Shown here: positions 4,008 to 4,763 of the stretch, one piece after another
Position numbering within the stretch: position 1 is the stretch's first letter
Layout: each line of letters opens with the position of its first letter
IMG/VR virus record: IMGVR_UViG_3300029248_000131
Strand: one strand, 5' to 3'
DNA: 6,650 nucleotides
Source: a virus
Lineage: Duplodnaviria > Heunggongvirae > Uroviricota > Caudoviricetes
The notes under the pieces: generated by a model
What the model saw: only the letters and a program-made list of their open reading frames with translations
Databases searched by the model: none
What the model was told of the DNA's origin: nothing
Position numbers and translations under genes: made by a program

Positions 4008-4763
4008 GTGACTTACAATTCAAAAAGCTGTAGTTCTCTTGAAAAGGCATATTACACTCCAATTGAAGCGGCGCTACGTTGGTGTAATTTAATTGCTCAT
4101 GAAGTTTTAATATTGGAGCGAGTGGGAGATGGAGTTTTACCTAGCGTTGGAATGTTCCCTCAATGGCCTTGCTTGCGTGTTAATGCTGAGAAAATTTTAG
4201 ATGCAATCCATAATTGTGAAATTCCTTATGGTCGTGATGGTAAAACTGTTCAACCTGGAGAACAGGTTGCTAAGCACCGTTTAACCGTCCGTCATTCCGA
4301 TCTGAAATCATGGATGTCAAAAAACTATCCCAACCAAAAACCAGCTTTCCTTTTTGATGCTGTTGAGCAGCAGTTACATGCTGGAATTACAGTCGAGGCA
4401 TATCAAACTCTTCAGGCTGAAAACAAACGTCTTAATATTCGCTTAGATAATGCTATGAAGACTTTTCAACAGCAGAAAAATGAAATTTCCGAATTACAAG
4501 GGGAACGTGATTCACTACGACGAATGGTTGATAACTCCGTGCAAAACATTGACCAACGTTCTGAAACAACATATTTAAACATTATTGGAGGGTTGCTTTT
4601 TCTAATGTTAGGGCGTTCACCTGCTGGTATTAAGCAATCTGTATTCGAAAATCAAAGCTCTATTATTAGTAATTTATTGGGGCATTTTGAAGGTAAGCCG
4701 GGGATGAGTTCAAGAACGCTGGAAGCAAAGTTTGCTGAAGCCAATAAATCAATTAAATCGTAG
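4008..4763 (+). CDS. Hypothetical protein (251 aa) with central coiled-coil-like segment; island cargo gene of unknown function
   Basis: ORF-track ORF with GTG start at 4008 and GAGGTA 8 nt upstream. Lower GC than the flanking int and antA-like genes. Central heptad-like stretch EAYQTLQAENKRLNIRLDNAMKTFQQQKNEISELQGERDSLRRMV. No family recognised by eye. Confidence 0.6.
   Translation: MTYNSKSCSSLEKAYYTPIEAALRWCNLIAHEVLILERVGDGVLPSVGMFPQWPCLRVNAEKILDAIHNCEIPYGRDGKTVQPGEQVAKHRLTVRHSDLKSWMSKNYPNQKPAFLFDAVEQQLHAGITVEAYQTLQAENKRLNIRLDNAMKTFQQQKNEISELQGERDSLRRMVDNSVQNIDQRSETTYLNIIGGLLFLMLGRSPAGIKQSVFENQSSIISNLLGHFEGKPGMSSRTLEAKFAEANKSIKS

What the first reader, a model, noticed from the sequence alone, without database searches (positions are those of the whole stretch)
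4008..4763. Unrecognised lower-GC 251-aa gene in the variable slot between int and alpA
The int-X-alpA layout is conserved in CP4-57-like and P4-like elements, with X variable; such integrase-proximal slots often hold accessory or anti-phage genes. Here X has a GTG start, lower GC than its neighbours, a central coiled-coil-like segment and terminal domains I cannot assign. It is immediately followed by the twin-palindrome operator, so it may be co-regulated with or act on alpA. This is the best candidate in the window for an uncharacterised function.
Basis: partly seen in the sequence, partly recalled or inferred. Interest (0 to 1): 0.55.

Follow-up and report, generated by a model that had tools for sequence, protein, structure and literature searches.

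The report
BisR-type activator gene upstream of alpA
The "unrecognised" 251-aa gene is a relative of BisR, the switch protein that turns on the alpA promoter in the conjugative element ICEclc, here sitting in a small phage-satellite-like island; it is probably the island's own on-switch, not an anti-phage cargo gene.

Summary
The ORF is real: 4008-4763, GTG start, 251 aa, 38.9% GC against 46-53% in its neighbours. It matches no Pfam, NCBIfam or PADLOC family. It belongs to a large, length-conserved proteobacterial family (1,349 cluster representatives). The more distant members (40-45% identity) all occupy the bisR position of ICEclc-type conjugative elements: X-alpA-parA-bisD-bisC. Published ICEclc primers map there, and 30 nt of ICEclc bisR encode the family's C-terminal motif. 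In ICEclc, BisR activates the alpA promoter (PMC7423338).

The window's clade lies directly after an integrase, in small primase-bearing PICI/P4-like islands that lack bisDC. The twin palindrome after the stop codon is family-wide: two dyads about 21 bp apart. Dyad sequence co-varies with residues 236-239 of X's last helix. It does not co-vary with AlpA, which can be 100% identical behind different dyads. A -10-like hexamer lies exactly 28 bp downstream of the proximal dyad centre, which places the dyads at about -40.5 and -61.5, an activator geometry.

Sibling E. coli islands carry an unrelated coiled-coil protein with different dyads in the same slot. So the slot is variable, but what varies is a regulator-operator cassette, not defence cargo. 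Verdict: a BisR-family regulator in a new context. RefSeq's "protein kinase" name is unsupported.

The parts
2673..3887 (+). P4-type tyrosine integrase (int), directly upstream of X
   Evidence: Pfam Arm-DNA-bind_3, Phage_int_M and Phage_integrase. An integrase lies directly upstream of X in about 22 of 84 loci, all from the window's clade.
3888..4007 (+). int-X spacer. The left boundary of the exchangeable cassette lies at about 3955-3990. A GAGG ribosome-binding site precedes the GTG start.
   Evidence: Alignment with sibling islands is near-identical up to about 50 bp before the slot gene, then diverges. No significant RNA structure (z = 0.06). No consensus promoter found.
4008..4763 (+). 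X: BisR-family regulator, 251 aa
4008..4382 (+). N-terminal domain (aa 1-125), the most conserved part. It contains an excisionase/MerR-like winged helix with an insertion. Its role is unknown (sensor or RNA-polymerase contact are guesses).
4359..4544 (+). Central long helix (aa 118-179), a presumed dimerising coiled coil. Its sequence is variable.
4554..4757 (+). C-terminal helical domain (aa 183-250). The last helix (aa 235-250, nt 4710-4757) is the proposed recognition helix, with R236-T237-L238-E239 at nt 4713-4724.
   Evidence: Column 239 separates the dyad classes perfectly (normalised MI 1.00). R236/T237 change when the dyad core changes. An independent Klebsiella locus obeys the rule.
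4774..4791 (.). Distal dyad ATACCGCAATTGCGGTAT, centred at about -61.5 relative to the predicted transcription start
4795..4812 (.). Proximal dyad TCACCGCAATTGCGGTGA, centred at about -40.5. It overlaps the -35-like hexamer.
4809..4837 (+). Predicted weak alpA promoter: -35-like GTGATA (4809-4814), 17-bp spacer, -10-like TTCAAT (4832-4837). Predicted start near 4844.
   Evidence: A -10-like hexamer lies at a fixed +28 to +33 from the proximal dyad centre in 34 of 42 non-redundant loci. The strict consensus scan did not flag it. No start-site data exist.
4838..4870 (.). Second inverted repeat, GTCTCCCGT ... ACGGGAGAC. The right arm covers the alpA ribosome-binding site. Role unexplained.
   Evidence: Equivalent repeats with co-varying arms are present in several distant loci.
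4878..5075 (+). alpA (65 aa; the true start is ATG 4878, not the GTG 4809 of the mechanical ORF list). It is the presumed target gene. Its first 34 codons belong to the exchangeable cassette.
   Evidence: Pfam Phage_AlpA 2.5e-19. RefSeq CDS of 198 bp. Cassette boundary inside alpA.
5153..5953 (+). antA/AntB-type gene, the next gene of the presumed alpA operon
   Evidence: Pfam AntA 2.8e-23 and PHROG anti-repressor Ant.

Best explanation
X is a BisR-family transcription activator. It most likely dimerises through its central coiled coil. The last helix of its C-terminal domain reads the two 18-bp dyads that lie 10-50 bp after its own stop codon. From about -40.5 and -61.5 it would switch on a weak alpA promoter. 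That would start expression of alpA, antA and probably the downstream replication genes of a small integrase- and primase-bearing PICI/P4-like island.

Shown here: family membership, the conserved X-dyads-alpA unit, the protein-operator co-variation and the promoter geometry.

Taken from the literature: BisR activates PalpA in ICEclc, and AlpA is the activator of the cycle of Gram-negative PICIs.

Inferred: direct DNA binding by the C-terminal helix, activation in this island, and what controls X itself.
For: (1) Homology and synteny. There are full-length relatives at 40-45% identity, with tblastn E of 1e-52 to 1e-63 in the locus confirmation. In 45 of 45 ICE-type loci they occupy the position directly upstream of alpA-parA-bisD(parB)-bisC(DUF2857)-STY4528-PFL_4669.

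(2) Link to the characterised gene. ICEclc primers map with 1-2 mismatches at the expected places in L044 and L070-L081. Two overlapping primers give 30 nt of ICEclc bisR, which encode LMGITDRTLQ. This matches the family motif G[IM][ST]xRTL[EQ].

(3) Literature. PMC7423338 describes bisR as a 251-aa protein with no Pfam domain, encoded as a single gene upstream of PalpA. Its induction strongly activates a PalpA reporter in ICE-free P. putida. In L084 the reverse primer of that reporter fragment maps 42 bp before the X stop, so the fragment should span the dyad region.

(4) Operator. Twin dyads 20-21 bp apart lie directly after the X stop in nearly all loci, in at least 5 sequence classes.

(5) Who reads them. 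AlpA can be 100% identical behind different dyad classes, while X never exceeds 77% (N-domain) or 74% (C-domain) identity across classes. Column 239 has normalised MI 1.00: E/Q with CCGCA, W with CTGCA, D with TTGCA. The best AlpA column reaches 0.79. R236 becomes T, A or S in loci with CCCC or CCCTA dyads, including L004 (about 65% identical to X), which sits among the window's closest relatives.

(6) Geometry. A -10-like hexamer lies at +28 to +33 from the proximal dyad centre in 34 of 42 loci. No consensus promoter is present.

(7) Independent test. A Klebsiella locus not used to derive the rules obeys them.
Against: The ICEclc BisR protein itself (CAE92957.1) could not be retrieved, so the link rests on synteny, primers and a 10-residue peptide.

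The C-terminal domain has no supported similarity to any known helix-turn-helix family. hhalign against Fis gives 0.8% probability, and PDB and Pfam profile searches are empty.

The N-terminal domain is the one that resembles a DNA-binding fold, so it could be the DNA reader or a second one.

The co-variation is partly confounded by phylogeny and has one exception: L061 has RTLD with CCGCA dyads.

The exchanged cassette in sibling islands also includes the AlpA helix-turn-helix head, so AlpA probably also binds somewhere in this region.

No transcription start, expression or binding data exist for this island. This island lacks bisDC, so what lies downstream of alpA differs from ICEclc.
Confidence: 0.68

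Rival explanations
1. X binds the dyads as a repressor. It would be a master repressor that keeps the island silent, like Stl in Gram-positive PICIs or a phage cI, and alpA would be de-repressed when X is inactivated.
For: The proximal dyad overlaps the -35-like hexamer, a position from which proteins can also repress. X may be co-transcribed with int: the spacer is short or absent in several loci. That would fit a constitutively made repressor. No repressor is known for Gram-negative PICIs (PMC6092414).
Against: The characterised family member is an activator, and PalpA is silent without it (PMC7423338). The promoter hexamers are weak (4/6 and 4/6), and the dyads sit at -40.5 and -61.5, the classical activator positions, conserved across the family.
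Confidence: 0.1
2. The twin dyads are AlpA's own auto-regulatory operator. X acts on alpA in another way, for example as a co-factor or through its N-terminal winged helix at another site.
For: AlpA represses PalpA in ICEclc and activates its own promoter in EcCICFT073. The exchanged cassette includes the AlpA helix-turn-helix head. The N-terminal domain of X has an Xis/MerR-like fold.
Against: AlpA is 100% identical in loci with different dyad classes (L036 and L071; L060 and L050). No AlpA column discriminates the classes, best 0.79. Perfect 18-bp palindromes suit a symmetric dimer, and AlpA (65 aa) has no dimerisation module. The dyads are also present where no AlpA homologue was detected. 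A second, separate inverted repeat near the ribosome-binding site is available as an AlpA site.
Confidence: 0.1
3. X is an accessory or anti-phage defence gene carried in an integrase-proximal hotspot.
For: It has lower GC than its neighbours. The slot content differs between sibling islands. The gene is rare in E. coli, in 8 of 5,426 genomes.
Against: PADLOC gives no hit. It is conserved with alpA and cognate dyads across classes of Proteobacteria. It is homologous to a known regulator. Defence-type cargo lies elsewhere in related islands.
Confidence: 0.03
4. X is a protein kinase or ATP-binding protein, as RefSeq names many members.
For: Only the database names.
Against: There is no kinase, P-loop or ATP-binding family hit at E<=1. 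No kinase-family match passes in the PDB searches by sequence or by fold: the one Tyk2 row in the fold search has E 3.5 and TM 0.08, which is noise. The predicted structure is a winged helix, a coiled coil and a small helical domain.
Confidence: 0.01

Closest known systems
BisR (orf101284, CAE92957.1) of ICEclc, Pseudomonas knackmussii B13 (Carraro et al., eLife 2020, PMC7423338)
   Same: Same length (251 aa) and no Pfam domain. Same three-part build and same position directly upstream of alpA on the same strand. Shared C-terminal motif (ICEclc LMGITDRTLQ, window PGMSSRTLE). Twin dyads between the gene and alpA also occur in ICEclc-like loci. The expected function is the same: activation of the alpA promoter.
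   Different: Only about 41-45% identical to ICE-type orthologues. Here the gene lies directly after the integrase in a small island of roughly 10-17 kb, with antA, an icd-like gene and a primase or helicase. There is no parA-shi-bisDC feedback loop and no conjugation genes. No TciR-like LysR regulator lies upstream. The Cys residues that are invariant in the window's clade (C8, C26, C55) are not conserved in ICE-type members.
Gram-negative phage-inducible chromosomal islands such as EcCICFT073 (Fillol-Salom et al., ISME J 2018, PMC6092414)
   Same: The element has int at one end, AlpA as the early regulator, a primase/replication module, and a PerC-like accessory gene in the E. coli copy (L001).
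   Different: In the described PICIs, alpA induction depends on a helper-phage factor that was unidentified in 2018, and that paper does not describe a BisR-like gene. Here an island-encoded activator candidate with its own operators precedes alpA. Helper dependence and packaging of this island are untested.
Immunity-region mosaicism of lambdoid phages (repressor plus operators exchanged as a unit)
   Same: Sibling islands with near-identical flanks carry alternative regulator genes with matching alternative operator arrays. The recombination boundaries lie just outside the module.
   Different: The regulator is probably an activator, not a repressor. The module also includes the DNA-reading head of the next gene, alpA.
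Excisionase/MerR-type winged-helix proteins (Pukovnik Xis, BldC, RdfS, TorI)
   Same: About 50 residues of the N-terminal domain superpose at 2.2-2.8 Å.

Membership tests
BisR family (ICEclc bistability regulator) | Protein of about 250 aa without any Pfam domain | tested here: met
   251 aa; no Pfam or NCBIfam hit above threshold. The published description is identical.
BisR family (ICEclc bistability regulator) | Sequence homology to bisR-position genes of ICEclc-type elements | tested here: met
   Identity of 40-45% over aa 3-251, with tblastn E of 1e-52 to 1e-63 in the locus confirmation. Those genes sit upstream of alpA-parA-bisD-bisC. ICEclc primers map there. The ICEclc bisR fragment encodes the family motif.
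BisR family (ICEclc bistability regulator) | Full-length alignment with ICEclc BisR itself (CAE92957.1) | not tested
   The sequence was not obtainable. A second homologue search did not list it among its best 120.
BisR family (ICEclc bistability regulator) | Encoded directly upstream of alpA, same strand, with the alpA promoter in the spacer | tested here: met
   114-bp spacer in the window. alpA is detected downstream in at least 62 of 84 loci.
BisR family (ICEclc bistability regulator) | Activates transcription from the alpA promoter | not testable with these tools
   Only indirect support: weak promoter hexamers, and dyads at -40.5 and -61.5 at a fixed distance from a -10-like element.
ICEclc-type transfer-competence cascade (MfsR-TciR-BisR-AlpA-BisDC) | parA-shi-bisD-bisC downstream of alpA, ICE backbone and conjugation genes | tested here: not met
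   The window has antA after alpA. L001 to L003 and the Klebsiella loci have icd-like, DUF4222, Phage_ASH and primase or helicase genes, with no parA or bisDC.
ICEclc-type transfer-competence cascade (MfsR-TciR-BisR-AlpA-BisDC) | LysR-type activator (TciR) controlling the bisR promoter | tested here: not met
   No LysR gene in the window or among the annotated genes of the L001 island. The integrase lies directly upstream instead.
Gram-negative PICI | int, alpA and a primase/replication module in a compact island at a specific attachment site | tested here: met
   In L001 the island is about 17 kb, at tRNA-Gly, with int, alpA, a RepA helicase or DUF927 primase, and PerC. Klebsiella loci show the same order. 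The primase lies outside this window.
Gram-negative PICI | Helper-phage-dependent induction and packaging | not testable with these tools
   No experimental data. No packaging genes were identified among the annotated products.
P4-like satellite | psu, delta and sid capsid-size genes and the P4 immunity region | tested here: not met
   None are annotated in L001. Only the integrase type and the alpha-like primase domains are shared.
Known anti-phage defence systems (PADLOC) | Match to a defence-protein model | tested here: not met
   0 families for X at E<=1.
Protein kinases (RefSeq name) | Kinase or ATP-binding domain | tested here: not met
   No such Pfam or NCBIfam hit. No kinase-family match passes in PDB by sequence or fold; the one Tyk2 row in the fold search (E 3.5, TM 0.08) is noise.
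Excisionase/MerR winged-helix fold (N-terminal domain) | Structural match of the winged helix-turn-helix | tested here: inconclusive
Fis/NtrC-type HTH_8 (C-terminal domain) | Profile similarity of the helix-turn-helix | tested here: not met
   hhalign aligns PGMSSRTLEAKFA with Fis MGINRGTLRKKLK, but at 0.8% probability. No Pfam or PDB profile hit.

The most novel reading that the evidence does not exclude
BisR-type proteins could be the missing island-encoded switch that controls alpA in a subclass of enterobacterial PICI/P4-like satellites. The highly conserved Xis-like N-terminal domain would act as the input domain, sensing a helper-phage or host signal. The C-terminal helix would give each island a private operator specificity. 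That specificity would be exchanged between islands as a regulator-operator-AlpA-head cassette, so co-resident islands do not cross-induce. The residue-to-base rules found here (position 239 E/Q, W or D; position 236 R versus S, T or A) would then be a simple, re-programmable recognition code for a new DNA-binding domain.
Probability: 0.25. Interest if true: 0.7.

Novelty: new variant of a known kind. Interest (0 to 1): 0.5.

Why it matters
This assigns a testable function to a widespread protein that public databases call "hypothetical" or, wrongly, "protein kinase". It links the regulatory front end of ICEclc-type conjugative elements (BisR to PalpA) to small phage-satellite-like islands of Escherichia, Klebsiella, Salmonella and relatives. 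How alpA is switched on in those islands is an open question. None of the ICEclc papers I searched describes a binding site for BisR. This work predicts the operator (twin dyads), the recognition helix and specificity residues, and it gives a promoter geometry. All of these can be tested with a reporter, a gel shift and two point mutants. It also shows that the "variable slot" next to the integrase exchanges regulatory specificity, not defence cargo. That matters for people mining integrase-proximal hotspots.

Tried and rejected
- Pfam, NCBIfam, PHROGs and PADLOC scans of X gave nothing usable.
- PDB sequence search gave nothing.
- Foldseek of the full model against PDB gave best E 2.5.
- The C-terminal domain profile against PDB sequences, Pfam and E. 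coli Fis was not significant, so the Fis-like look of the motif is not supported.
- tblastn against the phage collection found no match, so there is no evidence that X is a phage gene.
- I tried to capture ICEclc BisR itself with a second large search, and by looking for the primer-derived peptide and N-terminus. It was not among the listed hits.
- The sibling-island comparison, used as a natural experiment for who reads the dyads, was not decisive, because the AlpA head is swapped too.
- A zinc site at Cys8/Cys26/Cys55/His96/His124 was rejected, because ICE-type members lack the cysteines.
- An RNA structure or terminator in the int-X spacer was rejected (z = 0.06).
- The consensus sigma-70 scan of the X-alpA spacer found nothing. 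The -10-like element only emerged from alignment anchored on the dyad.

Full report
**1. The observation**

The ORF at 4008-4763 (+) exists as described, with a GTG start and 251 codons. RefSeq annotates the same 756-bp CDS in the only 8 of 5,426 complete E. coli genomes that carry it, at 99.7% identity or more.

Its GC content is 38.9% (GC3 28.6%). The neighbours are higher: int 47.5%, alpA 46.0%, antA 52.9%.

No Pfam, NCBIfam or PADLOC model matches. Only sub-threshold coiled-coil hits cover aa 117-186.

AlphaFold2 with 74 homologues (mean pLDDT 83.3) gives three parts: an N-terminal domain (aa 14-116), one long helix (aa 118-179) and a C-terminal helical domain (aa 183-250).

The twin palindrome is real. 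ATACCGCAATTGCGGTAT lies at 4774-4791 and TCACCGCAATTGCGGTGA at 4795-4812. Their centres are 21 bp apart, and the first starts 10 bp after the stop codon. The core is unique in the window and in a 40-kb homologous locus.

**2. The family**

X belongs to a large, length-conserved family. One search found 706 homologues. The exhaustive profile search found 1,349 cluster representatives at E<=0.001. They span Gamma- and Betaproteobacteria and some other lineages. The phage collection holds none.

RefSeq names many members "protein kinase", "ATP-binding protein" or "receptor protein-tyrosine kinase". Nothing in sequence or predicted structure supports these names.

The alignment shows a strongly conserved N-terminal domain, a variable coiled coil and a conserved C-terminal domain.

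**3. Identity: a BisR relative**

In a Pseudomonas veronii plasmid and a Ralstonia solanacearum megaplasmid the gene order is X - alpA - parA - parB - DUF2857 - STY4528-family replication protein - ... - TIGR03761/PFL_4669 ICE protein - ssb - topoisomerase III. That is the backbone of the ICEclc/PAPI-1/SPI-7 family of conjugative elements.

In ICEclc, the gene directly upstream of the alpA promoter is bisR (orf101284). It is described as a 251-aa protein with no Pfam domain and with homologues across Alpha-, Beta- and Gammaproteobacteria. Inducing it strongly activates a PalpA reporter in P. putida that lacks the ICE, and deleting it abolishes transfer (PMC7423338).

I could not obtain the ICEclc protein sequence, but three lines tie it to this family:
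- Published ICEclc primers map with 1-2 mismatches at the expected positions in loci L044, L050, L070, L071, L077, L078 and L081: just upstream of alpA and inside parA.
- Two overlapping primers reconstruct 30 nt of ICEclc bisR. In frame these encode LMGITDRTLQ, matching the family's C-terminal motif. The window has GMSSRTLE and the L070 group has AMGITERTLQ.
- The reverse primer of the BisR-responsive PalpA fragment maps 42 bp before the X stop in L084. That fragment should therefore span the region where the dyads lie.

**4. Two contexts**

I classified 84 loci that carry X.
- 45 loci are ICE-type: X-alpA-parA-bisD-bisC-STY4528-PFL_4669. None has an integrase directly upstream. These are the 40-45%-identity relatives.
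- About 22 loci have a P4-type integrase directly upstream. These include the window's closest relatives (48-100% identity). None has parA or bisDC, and several carry a DUF927 or other primase.

In E. coli the island is about 17 kb and sits at a tRNA-Gly. Its order is int - X - alpA - antA - ylcI - icd-like - small genes - DUF4222 - RepA helicase or DUF927 primase - accessory genes, including PerC and ProQ/FinO family genes.

In Klebsiella the order is int - X - AlpA - Bro-N - DUF4222 - Phage_ASH - primase (Zn-ribbon/Toprim/DUF927). Variable cargo follows the primase: RnlA toxin, RES, SDH protease.

This is the layout of Gram-negative PICIs. In those, AlpA activates the island's cycle, and its transcription depends on a helper-phage factor that had not been identified in 2018 (PMC6092414).

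**5. The operator and who reads it**

Twin dyads 20-21 bp apart lie directly after the X stop in nearly all loci. The classes among loci with a detected alpA were CCGCA (20 loci), CTGCA (19), TTGCA (16), CCCC (2), CCCTA (1) and others (4).

AlpA does not track the class. AlpA proteins are 100% identical in L036 (CTGCA) and L071 (CCGCA). X never exceeds 77% (N-domain) or 74% (C-domain) identity across classes.

In 43 non-redundant sequences, exactly one X column separates the three main classes perfectly. This is window position 239 in the motif R236-T237-L238-E239:
- E or Q with CCGCA (13 of 13, drawn from two distant clades)
- W with CTGCA (15 of 15)
- D with TTGCA (15 of 15)

The best AlpA column reaches 0.79.

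R236 is kept in all classes with a GCA core. It is replaced in loci with other cores: T (L004, L013, L010), A (L026) or S (L065), all of which have CCCC or CCCTA dyads. L004 is about 65% identical to X and is among the window's closest relatives, which argues against pure phylogenetic confounding. Members with an entirely different C-terminal domain have entirely different dyads.

One exception was seen: L061 has RTLD with CCGCA dyads.

A Klebsiella locus not used to derive these rules obeys them.

I therefore propose that the last helix (aa 235-250) is a recognition helix, and that X binds each dyad as a coiled-coil dimer. None of the ICEclc papers I searched mentions a BisR binding site or a palindrome.

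**6. Promoter geometry**

I anchored 42 non-redundant spacers on the proximal dyad centre. A -10-like hexamer (N-W-N-A-N-T) lies exactly at +28 to +33 in 34 of them, with T at +33 in 39 of 42. No other offset has more than 9.

In the window the hexamer is TTCAAT (4832-4837). A -35-like GTGATA (4809-4814) lies 17 bp upstream and overlaps the proximal dyad. Both hexamers match consensus at 4 of 6 positions, and the strict consensus scan found no promoter.

This places the dyads at about -40.5 and -61.5. Those are the classical class II and class I activator positions, in line with the published activator role of BisR. The predicted start is near 4844. The alpA ribosome-binding site is at 4864-4869 and the ATG at 4878.

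**7. The "variable slot"**

Sibling E. coli islands share int, the 3' half of alpA and antA at about 97% identity. In the slot they carry a 265-aa protein with no detectable homology to X: BLASTP E = 6.1 and hhalign probability 0.5%. It has the same central coiled coil. About five copies of a different dyad, ACCCTnAGGGT, lie upstream of alpA.

The exchanged segment runs from about 50 bp upstream of the slot gene to the middle of alpA. All 14 AlpA differences lie in residues 1-34.

What is exchanged, though, is a regulator + operators + AlpA-head specificity module.

**8. Domain folds**

The C-terminal domain has no supported similarity to any known family.

**9. Verdict**

X is a BisR-family regulator (confidence about 0.9). 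It most likely activates the adjacent alpA promoter through the twin dyads (about 0.65-0.7 for the full mechanism).

It is not a member of the ICEclc cascade as a whole, because the bisDC loop, the ICE backbone and a TciR-type input are absent. I therefore file it as a new variant of a known kind: the BisR-to-PalpA front end wired to a PICI/P4-like island.

The anti-phage cargo reading and the kinase annotation are not supported.

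Noticed in passing
L085:4721-5745 (E. coli 2024CK-00474); also L086: Sibling islands carry a different 265-aa coiled-coil protein (WP_000565286.1) in the int-alpA slot. It has no detectable homology to X. About five ACCCTnAGGGT dyads lie upstream of alpA. This looks like an analogous regulator-operator cassette and is much commoner in E. coli than X.
   Followed up: partly
window 4838-4870: A second inverted repeat, GTCTCCCGT...ACGGGAGAC, lies between the -10-like hexamer and the alpA start. Its right arm covers the ribosome-binding site. 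Equivalent repeats with co-varying arms occur in distant loci (L033, L046, L059, L075). It could be an AlpA auto-operator or a hairpin that sequesters the ribosome-binding site.
   Followed up: partly
window 4809-5075: The mechanical ORF for alpA starts at GTG 4809, inside the proximal dyad. The real start is almost certainly ATG 4878 (65 aa), as in RefSeq.
   Followed up: yes
window 1-2460: No tRNA lies upstream of int here, unlike the E. coli copies at tRNA-Gly or tRNA-Thr. The upstream DNA is 28-30% GC in the first 600 bp. It includes a phrog_4350 ORF at 1516-2088 (-). It matches an E. coli E41 region annotated with an acyltransferase and an S24 peptidase. The island may sit next to, or inside, prophage-like DNA. 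Homology with the other islands starts at about 2461.
   Followed up: no
window 5153-5953 (antA): The C-terminal part of the AntA-like protein (aa 172-253) matches the PADLOC candidate defence model PDC-S22 (E 8.8e-10).
   Followed up: no
L075:7944-9650: A gammaproteobacterial MAG has two tandem X paralogues in front of a single alpA. The twin CCGCA dyads follow the second copy.
   Followed up: no
L061 (Candidatus Competibacter MAG), spacer after X: This is the only clear exception to the helix-dyad rule: motif RTLD, expected to go with TTGCA, but with CCGCA dyads.
   Followed up: no
RefSeq/UniRef names of family members: The names 'protein kinase', 'ATP-binding protein' and 'receptor protein-tyrosine kinase' are propagated across the family without any supporting domain. 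This is probably an annotation error.
   Followed up: partly
L087-L090 (Klebsiella), 15-18 kb into each locus: Related Klebsiella islands carry variable toxin or defence-type genes (RnlA toxin, RES domain, SDH protease) and a TonB-dependent receptor downstream of the primase. That region, not the int-alpA slot, is the real cargo hotspot of this island family.
   Followed up: no
window 6224-6580 (-): The YlcI/YnfO-family ORF is probably much shorter than the 118-aa mechanical ORF. RefSeq annotates 180-303 bp, and the family match covers only aa 68-109.
   Followed up: no
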